In this document: positions 34,101-40,100 of the stretch, piece by piece
Layout: every line of letters begins with the position of its first letter
How positions within the stretch are numbered: position 1 is the stretch's first letter
Assembly (NCBI GenBank): GCA_965226885.1
Contig: CBDDEL010000016.1
Coordinates: 416,001 to 480,000 of the forward strand
Direction of reading: 5' to 3'
Origin: Opitutales bacterium
GTDB taxonomy: Bacteria; Verrucomicrobiota; Verrucomicrobiia; Opitutales; UBA2987
Length of the DNA: 64,000 bases
Program-made: the position numbers

Positions 34101-37100
34101 AGCCACTCACCTGAAGCCAGCACTGTTGGTTTGTTCATCATGATCCCGTTGGCGATCCGTCGCGGTTTCGACCACTGCGGGTTTTCATCGCCGGGATTTT
34201 CCGCAACTATCGCCCAGACTCCCGCACGTCCGTCCCACCAACTGTAAGATTGCGCATAGATCAGCCAGAGCCGTTCCTCCGGATCGAGCCACAACGTCGG
34301 GTCGTAAGTGCGTACCAACCCTTCACCATCGACCACCAACTTCAAGTCTGACCAGTTCCTGCCGTCATACCCGCTTGTGATCGCCATCACATAATTTTCC
34401 GGGCCTTCGCCGTTGCCCCCGCCGTACCACACCACCCATAAGCGGCCGTTCGCCGCGCGCGCAATTCCCGGGATGCCCTGAAACCCCCGCGCTACCCCCG
34501 CATACTCCGGGCCGGGAATCGTATGAATTGTCGCCGGAAGCATCGCCGGATCATTCATCATAAATGACATCGAACAAATCGAAAGAAACGCTATGATTAC
34601 AACTGTTGCGCGCATCGCTTATCCTCACCGAGATTTCCCATATGATGGGGATGAATCGATAAAATTATCGGCAATTTAATAAGCTTTGGCAATTTCTTTG
34701 GTATCTGCTGGTCAATTATTGCCCTTACGCCCTGCCTGGACAAGATCGGGCAACAGGAAGCAGAATTTCAAAAAGCTGATAACCCAGACGAACCAGGAGA
34801 TATAAACGAGGTATATGGGCGTAAGATTCATTCCACCAAGCAAGATCACTGAAATCGCTAAAGCCTGGCCGCAGATGCTCATTGCCAATTCCTTGGCCCA
34901 GCGGGGAATGCGCTTCGATAGCTTGCCCTTGGTTCCAATATCCCGGAGGTAGTAGGCCATAAAGGCACACGATCCCGGACAATGCCCCCAGGACGATCAG
35001 GAACGCCGCCAGCTTGTAATTCAGGCTATACTGGACATGCTACCCTCGCGGCCCTGAAGTTTCAGGAGCCTTTTTGTCTTGCTGCCATTTTGCGGAAAAT
35101 ACCTGGTCCATGAATTTCCCTAAGCATTTTCCGACGAAGGGCCACAGCCAATTTAAAGGCTTTTTGCTCCCCGTATTTGCGGATGGAGAATGAAGTGCAT
35201 TTCTGTTCACCGGGGGAAGGCCGCCAACTTACTGAGTAATATTCAGTAATGCTGCCGCTAAGACTTTTTTTGGCCATTCGGCACACACCCAACACTCCGG
35301 TAGTATTGCGCACATCGCGATAAGCTATCCTTCGGCCCCGAGGCTTGGTAGGAATTTGGGCAAGTTTTTCGTAGAGATCGTCCCGATACTGACGGGCTTC
35401 TTTCTGCGCCTTTCTTATGCCCCCGCATTTCATATCGCTGAAAAGTTTGGAGTAGATTTTCCCGTTTTTATACCCTCTCACAAACCATCCGCGGGTTGAA
35501 CCTGAATCAATGCGGCTGATTCCCTTGTTTTTGGGGTTTTTCCTCTTTCTTTTTGCCATAACCTATCTGATTTAATGATTTGAGTTAAGAACCATCCCCA
35601 GTTTGCTTTGAATCTTTGAATAACAATACGACCTTACCCATACACCAAGCCCAAGTCACGCTCATAACCGCCTACAACCCCGGCGGCACACTGAAGAGGC
35701 TTGCCGTCCAGGCGCTGGAAAAATCTGCTTGTGGGGGTGTTGTTATTAAATGTCCAAATCCAGGCCGGAGTGTCGTTGAAAAGAAACTGCCAGCGATAGG
35801 TGTTTTGGTTGAGAAAAATCCATTCCTGCAAGCCAAAATCAAACAGGAAGATTACTTCGCTGTTGCTGTCCTCAGAAACGAATTGCCAGCCATGTTCATC
35901 GTGATAAATCCAGGGCCAGAAATCCACATTGTAATTCAGATACCAGGGCGATCCGCGCCACTCGGGGAAGCCTTCAATGGGTTCACCGCCAAATACATCG
36001 GGCGGCTCTGTGTTGTATATCTGATCGGCAAATTCCGGGAAATCGACGAAGGGATTGCGATTGCCCTGGAAACCGCTGAAGATCGTCTGATTCCTGAGCC
36101 GTTCGGTGTCGGTCACCGGATGCTCACGGTTCCAGGCCAGAAGGGTGTCCAGGATTCCCATTTCGGGAATTAAGCTCTGACCTCCAAATTGCGGATCATT
36201 GTTTAGCTTCAGATCAAGAGTTGCCTCATCGCTTCCGTCATAACGAACCGCCATGTAAAACATCGCTCTGGCGATTTCTCCCTTCACGCTGTCGGGCGGC
36301 TCCCACGAGTCAGAATCGCGGGAGACCTCGGGGGCCGGGCCGAACGAACCGGGAGGAAGATATTCAGCGTCGCCGGGGTCGCTGTCGTCAAATATCAGGT
36401 TGCCCCGGCTGCTGTTTATGGAAGCCAGGCTTGGGCGGAGGCTGAACAGGTCGGAAGTATCCGCCCCTGATTCGTCAATGCCCCTTGACTTGGGCCACAG
36501 GTGTTCACGGTTCCATATACTGGGAAAACCATTGAAAGGTTCAGAGGCAGCGGAAAATATCGGCATCACTTTACCCTGGTCAAAGAGGTCCAGGTCGAGA
36601 ACCTGAAAAGCCTCATCTGCCTGGGAAAAGGGAATGACCGTGTGCCCGTCGATGATATTGTGGAGGGCACTGGCCAACTCTGTTCCACTTTTTCCCTCCG
36701 CTGCGGCGTAGTAACCCGAGGGAACTGGATCAATTTGAAACTGTGAGCTGTCAAAAACAGTGAATGACCATTCAAAGTTCTCCGTCATATTGTCCGGGCT
36801 CTCATCAATGTCGCTGACCAGGCTGGCGAAAATCATTATCGTGACGGACTCGCCCTCTTGAAAATCCGTGGCAGTTTTGAGGGTAAAATCCGGGGAGTTA
36901 TCTGCGGCCGTGACTATTGCGGAAATCGATCCGCTCAAGCTCCCCTCAATGGAAAACCACTGGCCGTTCACATCTACTACTTCACTGAAAGAAACGAGAA
37001 TATCGGCCGCCGGAGGCACACCTACCCTGCCATTTTCAGGATCAAAGCCCGATACCATCGGCGGGAGGTCGGTGGCCTGGCCGGTGAAGGTTTGGTTTAC

Positions 37101-40100
37101 ATTTGCCGCCCCATAGGTGCTGGCCTCTGGAGCCTCCCATTGGAAGTCACTGGAATCGGAGCCGACACCCGAAAGTTGCAACGAGTGACCAATGGGTGTT
37201 GCAGAACCCTCCTGCACACCGAGGTCGATACTTTCGATTCCCGCGGCTGGCCCATCGGCCGCTATGAAGGTTCCCTCATAACTGAAAAATTCGACCAACG
37301 AACCTGAAGAATCGACCAGGGCCAACCCGTCCGGCGATCCGTTTTGAATTGGGACTATGGCGAAGAACACCGCTCCGATCCCACTGTCTTCCTGGGGGAT
37401 TATCCCACTTAAGGGAACAGTCTTATAAACTTTCAGTTCGGATGCGGTGCCATTGTAAAGGGCAAGGCTCCAGCCTGTCAGGTCGGTTCCTGACGGCCCG
37501 GCGACCTCAATTCCCTCGTTGGCGTCCGCCCCGCTGTTATCATAGGTTATCATAGTGGATTTCATTGATAAAGACCGGGCCTGCAAAAGCCGATATGGCA
37601 ACAATCAATGTGGCCATCAACACTGTGGAAGTTTTAATCATTCTTATATTTGAGTTAAGAGCCATCCTGGGATCGCTTTGAGTATAAATACGCCCGAACC
37701 ATGCACCAAAGCCAGGTCACGCTCAAAACTTCAAGAATGCCTGTGAAGAGCGATTGAGGGTAAAGCAGCGTCAGGGCAAGGGGACCGGCGCACAAGCATC
37801 CCACAACTATTGCCAGGTTATTCCAACGCTCTGCTTTTGGGTTGCCCCGGAATCGATCAGTGAAAAAGTTAAGTCCGGAAAGCCGCATTCGATTCAGTAG
37901 AAACAAAATCAATTCCAATGGTCAAGCCTTATCGGGATAGCCTACCGGATAGCCTGCCGAAATGGGATTCAACACAATCCCCAAGCAACCCTTGCCGCCC
38001 GTTCACTCGCGGTTCTGAAATTTCAGGAGCCTTTTTGCATTGCAGCCATTTTGCGGAAGATACCTGGCCCATGAATTTGACGAAGCATTTTCCGCCGGAG
38101 GGCCACAGCCAGTTTAAAGGCTTTTTCCTCCCCATATTTGCGGATGGAGAAAGAAGTTGTTTTCAGTACTCCGGGGGAAGGGCTCCAACTGACTGAGTAA
38201 GCTTCGCTTATTTTCCCGGATGGGCTTTTCTTTGCCGTGCGGCAGACTCCCAACACTCCTGTAGTATTGCGGGGATTATGAGAAACGATCTTCCGACCCC
38301 AGGGTTTGGTGGGAATTTGGGCCAGCTTTTCGTGAAGTTCATCCCGATACTGACGGGCTTCTTTCTGCGCCTTCCTTTTGCCTCCACATTTCAGATCACT
38401 GAAAAGTTTGGGGTAGGTTTTCCCATTTTTGTACCCCCTCACGAACCATCCGTGGGTTGAGCCTGAATCAATGCGGGTGATTCCTTTGTTTTTTGGATCT
38501 TTCCTTTTTCTTTTAACCATAAGCCAAAGCCAAAAGCCTTACCAGTCTTTTTAAGCCTGCAAAAGCTCAGGCTTGTTCATTTTCCAGGCGGCAGCCCCAG
38601 CCAGCAGGGTCATCAATACGATCATGCCCCATTCATTCAGGGTTGGGATGGGCTGTGGCACAACGCCGGTAGCCCCTGCCAGGATGGGGGTGTCGGGCGT
38701 GTCTTCATATGCCCAGTCTATTATGCTAACCGAGGTGGCCATTCCAAAAAAAATTGCCAAATCATATTGAAAGCAAATATTTGGATCGAAATATTGGATA
38801 GTAGCTATTTTCAACGATAGTGAATGTTCATATGGTAAATCTCGGTTAAATTCTGTGGACTTTTTGTTTCCTGAGAGCTATACAGAGTTACTTTACTTTT
38901 TCTCCACAGAGTTACTTTACTTTTTCTCCATTGTGCAATTTTTAGTTCTCATGCGTCCGGAAATTACAGAAGAAAGCCATTGGTTCGCAGAAAACCTGCA
39001 GCCACATGAAGCCATGTTGCGGGCCTGGCTGCATAGTCGTTTTTCCAATGAGCACGATATAGACGATATCGTGCAGGAGGCATATTTCAAGGTCTTGAAA
39101 GCCCGAAAGACTACAAAGATCACTTCTCCCAAGGCTTTTCTTTTTGCCACTGCAAGAAATTTGGCTCTCGAAGGCATTAGAAAAAAATCGGTGCGCAGCG
39201 AACTTTCTTTGGTAGATTTGAACGAGTTTGACCTCTTGAATGATGAGGAGGACGTTAATGATGCCGTTGCTCGCTCCGAGGAACTTGAAATTTTGACCAG
39301 AGCCATACAGTCATTACCAACCCGTTGCCGCCAAATCATCACTTTGCGGAAGATATACGGCATGTCCCAAAAGGATATCGCCAAGGAACTTGGCATATCG
39401 GTGCATACGGTAGAAACTCAAGGAACTATAGGCATTCGGCATTCGCAAGCTCACAGAGTTTTTCGAGCGCTTGGAACGTCCAGCATACTAGCCCGGATAT
39501 TTCATGAAGGGTAAAGTTTGGCTCGTTATTGCTATTGGAGATGGATTTCTTTGTATTTTGAGCAGATCGTCTTGATTTTTAGGTGTTTTTCAGGGTGTAG
39601 AGACACTGCCCCCTTTCCCCCATTGGTTCGGTAGTGCCGGGGGCAGCACCAATGCACCCTTTAGGTTGGCACCAATCGGCGGGCCGCATGGTTGAAAAGA
39701 CTGGCCCAAGGATAACTCTCACTTAGGTGAAAGTGAATCGTTCGGGTGTTGCGCACGATGACCGCTCCGATCTTGATTAATTTGAGCCGCAGGGTGTGGC
39801 ATTGGGCCCGCGCCCACTTCGTCCCTTTTAAGGCTAACCGGCGCATGGCTTCCATCAAGGTGTAGGCCAGCGCCGACAAGAGCAATCGCCACTGATTGGC
39901 CCACCATTGATGGGCGCTGTGAAATGGACGGGGAAAACTGGACAGTGGAATAAGGTGGTCTTGAACCACTAAATCCGCTAACCTATGAATGTTATTAAAT
40001 CACGAAAGAGAAGACAATACAGTGCTGAGTTTAAAGCCCGAGTGGCCCTGGAAGCCATCAGGGGCGCTCATACCATCAACGAGATCGCCGGTCGTTTTGA

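What a model noticed while it worked through the whole genome (the two positions that open the first line are those of the whole stretch)
35062..38742. Seven copies of a 165-aa tandem-AP2 protein that is almost invariant across Opitutales
The genome has seven full paralogues (75-94% identical) and two fragments of a 163-168-residue, very basic protein (pI 10.8) that folds as two AP2 DNA-binding domains, and relatives in other Opitutales are 62-82% identical with 54 invariant positions, a conservation usual for ribosomal or histone-like proteins. I propose that it is an abundant nucleic-acid-binding architectural protein (nucleoid-associated protein or global regulator built from the plant/apicomplexan-type AP2 fold) of marine Opitutales, multiplied in this genus, where four copies stand directly downstream of IPTL-CTERM surface-protein genes and two beside cNMP-binding proteins. 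Free-standing tandem-AP2 proteins have no descr [...]
Evidence so far: Copies: g04369, g00489 (94%), g04211 (83%), g04367 (82%), g02160 (81%), g05194 (81%), g05162 (75%); fragments g04571 and C14:92846-93061; 40 Lys+Arg of 165. Homologues: 434 proteins at E 1e-3 or better of 454 candidates, the best 120 all 65-100% identical, named 'AP2 domain-containing protein' where named. Alignment of 29: mean column identity 66%, 54 invariant columns. AlphaFold: pLDDT 83, two sheet-plus-helix units, linker 77-85 disordered; best Foldseek PDB hits the tandem AP2 repeat of Plasmodium SIP2 on DNA (6SY0, 2e-4, prob 1.0) and proteins of the Toxoplasma mitoribosome. 131 stretches in species genomes encode a relative (Puniceicoccaceae, Coraliomargarita, Lentimonas, Thalassobacter [...]
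(Added by a program. Inside this text positions count along the whole contig: contig position 416,001 is position 1 of the stretch shown here. "Call 12" and the like, gene names such as g00115 and contig names such as C1 are that model's own, and its searches are not shown. The text may have been shortened before it was handed on; [...] marks where a part breaks off. The agent that wrote the report below was given it as the finding of a first reader that could run no searches.)

Follow-up and report, generated by a model that had tools for sequence, protein, structure and literature searches.

The report
Conserved tandem-AP2 DNA-binding protein, multiplied here
A small, very basic protein made of two AP2-type DNA-binding domains is a strongly conserved, normally single-copy gene in one branch of the Opitutales bacteria, and this one repeat-laden genome has made six extra, faster-evolving copies of it; what it does is still unknown.

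Summary
The window carries two 165-aa paralogues (35062-35559 and 38023-38520, minus strand; 82% identical). The genome holds seven full copies and two short ones. The AlphaFold model shows two sheet-plus-helix units, and the best PDB matches are the PfSIP2 tandem AP2 repeat and Toxoplasma mitoribosome AP2-like proteins.

Corrections:
- The gene was found in 65 of 201 sampled Opitutales genomes, almost always as one copy. That includes 10 of 10 genomes of 0.8-1.0 Mb in one family.
- The four congeners have one full copy, so the expansion is seen only in this genome, not in the genus.
- Copy c2 (contig C13) is the true orthologue (dN/dS 0.01-0.03). The other six copies form one young clade with dN/dS 0.13-0.39 and change up to 11 of 41 otherwise invariant residues.
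- The C14 "fragment" is an intact 74-aa single-AP2 gene under purifying selection.
- HU is present in 197 of 201 genomes, so the protein does not replace HU.
- The IPTL-CTERM and cNMP links are local duplications in a genome with 463 hits of one insertion sequence.

Most likely it is a core DNA-binding regulator. An abundant nucleoid protein remains possible, and neither reading was tested.

The parts
35062..35559 (-). Tandem-AP2 paralogue c1 (165 aa, pI 10.9). It belongs to the genome-specific extra clade and keeps all 41 residues that are invariant in orthologues.
   Evidence: ORF; Pfam AP2 at 112-146, 27.8 bits, below the cut-off of 33.3; model and fold matches; tree; invariant residues.
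38023..38520 (-). Tandem-AP2 paralogue c4 (165 aa). It is 82% identical to c1 and 96% to c5 on contig C10, and changes 6 of the 41 invariant residues.
38551..38814 (-). Short (87 aa) ORF ending in an IPTL-CTERM sorting signal. Its stop lies 30 bases before the c4 start. It is probably a 5'-shortened remnant, since other IPTL-CTERM frames in the genome run to 320 aa.
   Evidence: PF18203 E 4e-8 and TIGR04174 E 1.4e-8. The tail DNA is shared with the junctions of c6, f2 and c7.
38530..38545 (-). Left copy of an imperfect direct repeat of about 16 bases that brackets the c4 gene.
   Evidence: Read. A paralogous locus at C15:558266 has a single copy of this sequence and no AP2 gene.
37979..37998 (-). 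Right copy of the imperfect direct repeat, 25 bases after the c4 stop codon.
   Evidence: Read; compared.
37655..37918 (-). 87-aa ORF after c4 with no family match. Its 3' part recurs directly upstream of c5 (85% over 290 bases) and, more weakly, upstream of c1, forming a second shared junction.
35634..37604 (-). 656-aa ORF with Endonuclease_1 and Big_5 domains, upstream of c1. No IPTL-CTERM was found on it.
   Evidence: PF04231 E 4.8e-29, PF13205 E 1.7e-9. Its last ~110 codons match dozens of places in the genus.
34712..34960 (-). 82-aa ORF after c1 with no family match. It belongs to a repeated segment also found after c7 and at several loci without an AP2 gene.
34628..34692 (-). One copy of a promoter/leader-like repeat. 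It ends 12 bases before the start codon of the BNR-repeat gene at 33719-34615.
   Evidence: Read. The -35/-10-like pair was found by the scan. There are 31 copies in the genome, 4 of them just downstream of AP2 copies c1, c5, c6 and c7. No Rfam match.

Best explanation
The family is a clade-specific, vertically inherited, normally single-copy chromosomal gene of one branch of the Opitutales.

How it most likely works (inferred): the protein acts as a monomer with two AP2-type domains joined by a flexible basic linker. Each domain would lay its three-stranded sheet, which carries invariant Arg, Trp, Tyr and Lys residues, into the DNA groove. Together the two domains would read a two-part site, while the Lys/Arg-rich N-terminal tail and linker add unspecific affinity. 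I read it as a core, probably global, transcription regulator with sequence preference. Its targets are unknown.

In this genome (shown): the ancestral gene is c2 on contig C13. Since about the time the genus diversified it has given rise to six more full copies and one truncated copy.

How the copies spread (inferred): they were carried by ectopic recombination between dispersed repeats. These repeats are the conserved IPTL-CTERM tails, a small-ORF tail and a 31-copy promoter-like repeat, all inside insertion-sequence-rich accessory regions.

What the copies do (inferred): they remain under purifying selection, but it is 5-20 times weaker. Four of them have replaced residues that never vary in orthologues, mostly on the sheet strands. 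I take this as changed DNA specificity, giving local or subsidiary regulators, rather than plain decay.
For: Shown:
- Seven full copies.
- A two-domain AP2-like fold for both halves. VIA Z is 7.1 and 6.8 for residues 1-72, 7.0 for 85-156, and 7.0 over 118 residues of PfSIP2.
- Relatives pass the Pfam AP2 cut-off, some with two stretches, for example P0030 at 45.7 bits.
- 65 of 201 sampled genomes of the order have the gene. 54 of the 64 other than G000 have one match, and 4 congeners have one full copy plus the 74-aa gene. One family of 0.8-1.0 Mb genomes has it in 10 of 10.
- The tree groups rows by family. c2 nests among the 4 congeners, and the six other copies form one clade with support 99/91.
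- dN/dS is 0.01-0.03 for orthologues in the genus and 0.13-0.39 within the extra clade.
- 41 columns are invariant in 42 orthologue rows. c1 breaks 0 of them, c3 1, c4 and c5 6 each, c6 and c7 11 each, and most of the changes lie on predicted strands.
- Conservation is like that of MreB and HU. Example pairs: AP2 77-84%, MreB 77-82%, MreC 54-56%, MreD 36-40%.
- Homology between copies ends within about 5-22 bases before the start codon and 0-50 bases after the stop, except at the shared junctions.
- A paralogous locus lacks exactly 532 bases holding the gene.

Inferred: sequence-specific binding, from the behaviour of characterised AP2 domains (plant ERF, ApiAP2, the 6sy0 title). This rests on my knowledge of those families and not on a test here.
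Against: - No binding, target or expression data exist.
- A net charge of about +30 on 165 residues, single-copy status and HU-like conservation fit an unspecific nucleoid protein equally well.
- I found no shared upstream motif or regulon. The blocks conserved upstream of c2 within the genus occur nowhere else in the genome.
- Gene neighbourhood is only weakly conserved. The gene lies some genes upstream of mreBCD in 5 of 20 loci examined.
- All structural Z-scores are under 8, which the tool calls middling.
- Pfam AP2 on the window proteins themselves is below the cut-off and covers only the second domain.
- The congeners are draft bins of 30-470 contigs at 81-93% completeness. Extra copies in repeat-rich regions could have been missed there.
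Confidence: 0.45

Rival explanations
1. One reading: an abundant nucleoid-associated, architectural protein built from the AP2 fold. It would coat or bend DNA with little sequence preference.
For: - pI 10.0-11.3 and K+R 36-43 across 14 family members.
- Normally single copy and kept in 10 of 10 genomes of 0.8-1.0 Mb in one family.
- dN/dS of 0.01-0.03.
- Conservation comparable to HU and MreB.
- Long AT-rich non-coding stretch upstream of the orthologues.
Against: - HU is present in 197 of 201 genomes of the order, including all that carry this gene, so there is no vacant niche.
- The gene was not found in 3 of 3 complete genomes of one genus inside a positive family.
- Paralogues change strand residues that are otherwise invariant. 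That pattern is better known from specific regulators.
- Codon adaptation is low (8th-33rd percentile), but HU is also low at the 29th, so this is weak evidence.
- Abundance was not measured.
Confidence: 0.3
2. An RNA-binding or ribosome-associated protein. The AP2 fold would grip structured RNA, as in the Toxoplasma mitoribosome proteins.
For: - Several of the best fold matches are T. gondii mitoribosome chains: Foldseek E 3.5e-3 to 5.3e-3 and VIA Z 5.7-7.1.
- Weak matches of domain 1 to ribosome hibernation factors, Z 4-5.
- Charge and conservation resemble those of ribosomal proteins.
Against: - No linkage to ribosomal or translation genes in the 20 loci examined.
- Restricted to part of one order, whereas ribosome components are usually universal.
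- The equally good match is a DNA complex, 6sy0.
- All Z-scores are under 8.
Confidence: 0.1
3. This concerns the extra copies only and can hold alongside the readings above. They would be dedicated local regulators of the neighbouring IPTL-CTERM surface-protein genes or of the genes behind the promoter-like repeat.
For: - 4 of 17 IPTL-CTERM places in the genome are followed by an AP2 copy. For c4, c6 and f2 the gap is 30-35 bases. For c7 there is a 2.3-kb insertion in between.
- 4 copies sit just upstream of the promoter-like repeat.
- In another genome (G057) an extra copy lies head to head with a gene whose product ends in what I read as a PEP-CTERM-like signal. The motif is recalled and was not scanned.
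Against: - The junctions are homologous at the DNA level, so they count as one or two events and not four.
- A paralogous IPTL locus works without the gene.
- Congeners have 1-8 IPTL-CTERM places and no such link.
- The orthologue c2 has no such neighbour.
Confidence: 0.2
4. A selfish or mobile gene: a remnant of an AP2-bearing homing endonuclease, a phage gene or a gene cassette that spreads on its own.
For: - Homology between copies ends tightly around the coding sequence.
- A clean 532-base presence/absence is flanked by an imperfect direct repeat of about 16 bases.
- One distant relative carries an HNH domain.
- Published bacterial and phage AP2 domains are mostly in homing endonucleases (search listing only).
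Against: - There is no nuclease, integrase or transposase domain on the protein.
- No PHROG match.
- In 54 of 64 other positive genomes it gives a single match, with a tree that follows the families.
- dN/dS of 0.01-0.03 speaks for a host function.
- The closeness of insertion sequences is what 463 hits in 5.48 Mb would give by chance.
Confidence: 0.05

Closest known systems
Tandem AP2 repeat of Plasmodium falciparum SIP2 (PDB 6sy0) and other ApiAP2 / plant AP2-ERF transcription factors
   Same: - Two AP2-type sheet-plus-helix domains in one chain joined by a linker.
- It is the best Foldseek match (E 5.2e-4), with VIA Z 7.0 over 118 residues.
- The plant GCC-box binding domain 2gcc also aligns, at Z 4.3 over 50 residues.
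- By its PDB title, SIP2 binds two DNA half-sites.
   Different: - 18-20% identity, with low whole-chain TM-scores (0.27-0.33) because the domains are oriented differently.
- The protein here is bacterial, only 165 aa, with nothing beyond the two domains and basic tails.
- It is a single-copy core gene of a bacterial clade and not a member of a large eukaryotic regulator family.
- No DNA target is known.
AP2-derived proteins of the Toxoplasma gondii mitoribosome (9i05, 9g6k, 9hqv, 9fi8)
   Same: Single-domain fold matches of similar strength to both halves: Z 7.1 and 6.8 for residues 1-72, and 7.0 for 85-156. Both are very basic.
   Different: Those proteins are parts of an organellar ribosome and bind RNA. 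Nothing here links the gene to ribosomes.
HNH-AP2 homing endonucleases of phages and cyanobacteria, and arm-type DNA-binding domains of integrases
   Same: - The same DNA-binding fold superfamily.
- An integrase arm-binding domain (3jtz) aligns at Z 4.6.
- One distant relative of the family has an HNH domain.
   Different: - No nuclease or recombinase domain on the protein.
- No phage family match.
- Vertical, single-copy inheritance.
Bacterial nucleoid-associated proteins such as HU
   Same: Small, basic, strongly conserved, usually one or two genes per genome.
   Different: Unrelated fold. HU coexists with it in every positive genome searched. Abundance and unspecific binding are untested.

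Membership tests
AP2 domain (Pfam PF00847; AP2/ERF-integrase DNA-binding fold) | Match to the Pfam AP2 model at or above its gathering score | tested here: inconclusive
   - c1 scores 27.8 bits and c4 29.5 bits against a cut-off of 33.3, on residues 112-146 only.
- Family relatives found with the profile pass the cut-off: P0002 37.0, P0100 36.8, and P0030 45.7 with two stretches.
- P0010 matches on its first domain, at 27.4 bits.
AP2 domain (Pfam PF00847; AP2/ERF-integrase DNA-binding fold) | Three-stranded antiparallel sheet packed on a following helix, present twice | tested here: met
   - The model has strands 14-19, 22-31 and 34-41 with helix 48-68.
- It also has strands 91-98, 104-112 and 120-125 with helix 131-150.
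- Both halves match AP2-type chains, though all Z-scores are under 8.
AP2 domain (Pfam PF00847; AP2/ERF-integrase DNA-binding fold) | Conserved basic and aromatic residues on the sheet that contact DNA | tested here: inconclusive
   - R16, W25, R28, Y30, K97, W112 and R113 are invariant in 42 orthologue rows. R16, W25, R28, Y30, K97 and W112 lie on predicted strands, and R113 lies just after the second strand of domain 2.
- No residue-by-residue match to the DNA-contact positions of a solved complex was made. The role of such residues is recalled from the plant ERF domain.
AP2 domain (Pfam PF00847; AP2/ERF-integrase DNA-binding fold) | Binds double-stranded DNA | not testable with these tools
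   No tool here folds protein with DNA or measures binding.
Nucleoid-associated protein (functional class) | High cellular abundance | tested here: inconclusive
   Codon adaptation against 20 ribosomal-cluster genes places the copies at the 8th-33rd percentile of 4369 ORFs. HU is at the 29th, so the measure has no power here.
Nucleoid-associated protein (functional class) | Binding along the whole chromosome with low sequence preference | not testable with these tools
   Needs ChIP-seq or in-vitro binding.
HNH-AP2 homing endonuclease | A nuclease domain on the same protein | tested here: not met
   No HNH or other nuclease family on c1 or c4 in Pfam, NCBIfam or PHROGs. The 165 residues are filled by the two AP2 units.
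Tyrosine integrase with AP2-like arm-binding domain | A catalytic recombinase domain on the same protein | tested here: not met
   No integrase family on the protein.

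The most novel reading that the evidence does not exclude
The protein would be a new kind of bacterial chromatin protein built from the AP2 fold. 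It would be specific to the marine branch of the Opitutales and work beside HU. The extra copies in this genome, which is loaded with insertion sequences and about 1.2-2 Mb larger than its congeners, would be island-borne paralogues that bind and tame newly acquired or repeated DNA, much as plasmid- and island-borne H-NS paralogues do in enterobacteria. That comparison is recalled. The 74-aa single-domain gene would modulate the full-length protein.
Probability: 0.15. Interest if true: 0.8.

Novelty: new variant of a known kind. Interest (0 to 1): 0.5.

Why it matters
- Bacterial AP2 domains are known almost only as DNA-targeting modules of homing endonucleases and integrases.
- Here a free-standing two-AP2 protein is a core gene of a bacterial lineage. 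It is as conserved as MreB or HU and survives genome reduction to 0.8 Mb.
- That points to a central, undescribed DNA-binding function in a group that matters for marine polysaccharide turnover.
- It would also give a bacterial counterpart to the AP2 regulators of plants and apicomplexans.
- The seven-copy genome is a natural experiment. One strictly conserved copy sits beside six that are changing their presumed DNA-reading residues.

Tried and rejected
- **Insertion-sequence link.** A 1575-base insertion sequence (DDE_Tnp_1_4) lies within 3 kb of 6 of 9 copies. It has 463 BLAST hits in 5.48 Mb, about one per 12 kb, so this is what chance gives. Rejected.
- **HU replacement.** Rejected, because HU is in 197 of 201 genomes.
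- **Codon adaptation as a proxy for abundance.** Uninformative, because the HU control fails.
- **Expression.** No RNA holder was listed for window 34600-39000. Laying three metatranscriptome contig sets and one other run on the c2 locus gave one 179-base RNA-library contig. It was about 91% identical to part of the gene, in one run. The other RNA contigs lay on flanking DNA, mostly a neighbouring high-copy repeat. This says nothing on expression level.
- **Homodimer prediction.** No verdict (score 0.17, mark 0.42).
- **Regulon search.** The blocks conserved upstream of c2 within the genus occur only there in the genome.
- **Motif scan error.** A first regular expression for the promoter-like repeat was mistyped and found nothing. 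It was corrected.
- **Rfam.** No match in the whole window at gathering scores, nor in 34400-39000 at E up to 1.
- **Sequence search of PDB chains, NCBIfam and PHROGs with the protein.** Nothing.
- **BLASTP of domain 1 against domain 2.** No significant similarity (E 2.1).
- **Synteny of the window in congeners.** No orthologous locus was found, only scattered family matches.
- **ESM Atlas.** Only clusters automatically named as AP2.
- **Papers.** Three searches joining AP2 with Verrucomicrobia or Opitutales names, or with "nucleoid-associated", found nothing relevant. The supplements of PMC8857213 hold no "AP2" in the 12 of 16 files searched.

Full report
**What is in the window.** Two intact 165-codon ORFs lie on the minus strand, c1 at 35062-35559 and c4 at 38023-38520.
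- They are 82% identical without gaps.
- Pfam finds the AP2 domain only on the second half of each, at 27.8 and 29.5 bits, below the gathering score of 33.3.
- NCBIfam, PHROGs and a sequence search of PDB chains find nothing.
- c4 starts 30 bases after the stop of an 87-aa ORF that ends in an IPTL-CTERM signal.
- c1 follows a 656-aa ORF with Endonuclease_1 and Big_5 domains and no IPTL-CTERM.

**Copies in the genome.** A six-frame search gives nine places.
- Seven are full length: c1 C16:451065, c2 C13:310102, c3 C17:262142, c4 C16:454026, c5 C10:12691, c6 C16:326037 and c7 C17:231127.
- Two are short: f1 C14:92843 and f2 C16:628912.
- pI is 10.8-11.3 and K+R is 37-43.

**Fold.** I modelled c1 with an alignment of 14 family members.
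- The model has mean pLDDT 79.2 and pTM 0.44. It shows two units of three strands plus a long helix, a poorly defined linker at about 70-90, and a short C-terminal helix.
- Foldseek against the PDB puts the PfSIP2 tandem AP2 repeat on DNA first (6sy0, E 5.2e-4), followed by T. gondii mitoribosome chains.
- An independent all-against-representatives alignment gives the same families: Z 7.1 and 6.8 for residues 1-72, 7.0 for 85-156, and 7.0 over 118 residues of 6sy0.
- An integrase arm-binding domain scores Z 4.6 and the plant GCC-box binding domain 4.3.
- All Z-scores are under 8, which the tool rates as middling. The fold call therefore also rests on the Pfam matches of relatives.
- The two halves are not detectably similar to each other by BLASTP.

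**Distribution.** I searched 201 genomes sampled from the order, including this one.
- 65 have a match at E 1e-5 or better, which is 55 of 165 high-quality genomes and 40 of 104 genera.
- Presence is nearly all-or-none by family: f1 8/8, f8 10/10, f14 9/9 and f10 3/3, against f3, f4, f5, f17, f19, f23 and f30 with none.
- Family f8 consists of genomes of 0.8-1.0 Mb, and every one keeps a single copy at 49-57% identity.
- Nearly all positive genomes have one match. The exceptions are this genome (9), G057 (5), G027 (3) and a few with 2.
- In a phylum-wide sample of 121 genomes, only 5 of the 99 outside the order gave any match, and four of those were weak.
- In that sample 3 of 3 genomes of genus g36, at 99-100% completeness, lack the gene although the rest of their family has it (8 of 8). 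The gene can therefore be lost.
- A profile search of 1.84 billion cluster representatives finds 2712 clusters at E 1e-3, 872 at 1e-10 and only 40 at 1e-30. The tight family is small, but two-AP2 proteins of 150-200 aa are a wide, unnamed group. Some longer relatives have four AP2 units or an HNH, CBM48 or DUF1801 domain.

**Conservation.**
- I aligned 42 orthologue rows: c2 plus 41 different sequences from other genomes. I dropped one very long-branched row, L048, and the six extra copies. 41 columns are invariant, including a run on the first sheet.
- Within the genus, dN/dS is 0.01-0.03 while synonymous sites are near or beyond saturation.
- Between the same genome pairs the protein is 75-84% identical, MreB 77-82%, the best HU match 60-62%, MreC 54-56% and MreD 36-40%. 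HU has two paralogues, so those HU pairs may not all be orthologous.

**The expansion belongs to this genome.**
- In a maximum-likelihood tree of 49 different sequences the rows group by family.
- c2 nests among the four congener orthologues. The other six copies form one clade (99/91) inside the genus clade (98/95), with branches several times longer.
- c2 also keeps the neighbour seen in a congener, a LysE-type gene.
- The four congeners have one full copy each. They are draft bins, so missed copies cannot be excluded.
- Synonymous distances among the extra copies (0.12-0.9) and between them and c2 (0.67-1.4) are of the order of those between c2 and its nearest congeners (0.5-0.8). dN/dS within the extra clade is 0.13-0.39.
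- Of the 41 invariant residues, c1 changes none, c3 one, c4 and c5 six each, and c6 and c7 eleven each, mostly on predicted strands.
- This is relaxed but continuing selection with change at the presumed DNA-reading surface.

**The two "fragments".**
- f1 is an intact 74-codon ORF covering the first AP2 unit and ending at a TGA.
- Congener genomes and MAG loci hold the same gene. For the three fetched loci (L049-L051) the ORF also has 74 codons, with dN/dS 0.01-0.04 against f1. It is a working half-size paralogue and not debris.
- f2 has 66 AP2-like residues followed by unrelated sequence, and is a truncated copy behind an IPTL-CTERM gene.

**How the copies spread.**
- BLAST between the nine loci shows that homology mostly ends 5-22 bases before the start codon and 0-50 bases after the stop.
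- The exceptions are shared junctions.
  - c4, c6, f2 and, across a 2.3-kb insertion, c7 share about 100-130 bases of IPTL-CTERM tail upstream.
  - c1 and c5 share the tail of a small ORF upstream.
  - c5 and c6 share 900 bases downstream, including a cNMP-binding gene.
- A paralogous locus at C15:558266 has the IPTL tail joined to the c6 downstream sequence and lacks exactly 532 bases that hold the gene. One copy of a motif of about 16 bases stands where c4 and c6 have two imperfect copies flanking the gene. This could be a gain or a loss, and I cannot tell which.
- Four copies (c1, c5, c6, c7) are followed by a promoter/leader-like repeat that occurs 31 times in the genome and ends 15-25 bases before start codons of unrelated genes.
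- The genome has 17 IPTL-CTERM places against 1-8 in congeners, and four of them are followed by an AP2 copy.
- The window region has no syntenic counterpart in congeners.
- I infer that recombination between these dispersed repeats moved the gene among accessory loci. This is an inference.
- The closeness of insertion sequences is not meaningful, because the element has 463 hits.

**Function.** Nothing here measures binding or expression.
- HU is in 197 of 201 genomes, so the protein is an addition and not a substitute.
- Gene neighbourhood is weakly conserved. In 5 of 20 loci the gene lies a few genes upstream of mreBCD. In the small genomes it precedes what look to me like DUF167 and signal peptidase I, read from the sequences and not scanned.
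- Codon adaptation is uninformative. RNA data were absent or uninformative. A homodimer prediction gave no verdict.
- I weigh three things: the known sequence-specific behaviour of AP2 domains (my knowledge of the plant, apicomplexan and endonuclease cases), the two-domain layout like SIP2, and the pattern of change in the paralogues. On that basis I favour a core regulator with sequence preference (0.45) over an unspecific abundant nucleoid protein (0.3) and an RNA or ribosome role (0.1).
- A local role for the extra copies can hold alongside any of these.

**Novelty.** Searches of the paper library found no description of such a protein in Verrucomicrobia, nor of a bacterial AP2 nucleoid protein. 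The listing for bacterial AP2 domains is dominated by phage homing endonucleases (listing only). I rate it a new variant of a known kind: a known fold in a new setting, as a free-standing, core, clade-specific bacterial protein.

Noticed in passing
window 24150-25724 (also 8936-10512, 25721-27297, 62301-63862); whole genome: A 1575-base insertion sequence encoding a 456-aa DDE_Tnp_1_4 transposase has 463 BLAST hits in the 5.48-Mb genome. Most are 99-100% identical, and a second set is about 91% identical. That is roughly a tenth of the genome. Congeners are 3.4-4.3 Mb.
   Followed up: partly
window 39488-42398: Nested insertion. One copy of the 1575-base element is split into 39488-39919 and 41253-42398 by an IS3-type element whose two ORFs (HTH_Tnp_1 and rve) lie at 39985-40290 and 40301-41164.
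   Followed up: partly
window 34628-34692 (-); 31 places in the genome: A promoter/leader-like repeat of about 65-110 bases has a TTGCCA-type box, a T-rich box and a short palindrome. It ends 15-25 bases before start codons of unrelated genes. No Rfam family matches. It may be a portable promoter or the operator of an unknown regulator.
   Followed up: partly
G000 C14:92843-93076 (outside the window); L049-L051: A 74-aa gene with a single AP2 domain, the first half of the family, is conserved in the genus with dN/dS 0.01-0.04. Three genomes of another family (f32) have only such a half-size match.
   Followed up: partly
G000 C15:558266 against C16:326009-326540: Paralogous loci differ by exactly 532 bases that hold the AP2 gene, bounded by an imperfect direct repeat of about 16 bases. 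I could not decide whether this is a gain or a loss.
   Followed up: partly
window 35634-37604 (-): A 656-aa ORF with Endonuclease_1 and Big_5 domains. Its last ~110 codons (window about 35676-36005) match dozens of places in this genome and its congeners at 67-77% DNA identity, so they form a widespread C-terminal module of unknown role.
   Followed up: no
whole genome and congeners: This genome has 17 IPTL-CTERM places against 1, 2, 3 and 8 in the four congeners, so this surface-protein family has also expanded here.
   Followed up: partly
L002 2100-2900 (next to c2 on C13): A repeat holding a 214-aa ORF occurs twice near c2 at 99% identity. It shows very high contig depth in one DNA run and is covered by contigs of two RNA libraries.
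   Followed up: no
L092 (G057:C3:4455212-4461682): In another large genome with five matches, an extra AP2 copy lies head to head with a 248-aa ORF whose end reads like a PEP-CTERM sorting signal. This is my reading of the motif and it was not scanned.
   Followed up: no
window 38855-39514 (+): An ECF-type sigma factor gene (Sigma70_r2 and r4_2) is transcribed away from the IPTL-CTERM stub and c4.
   Followed up: no
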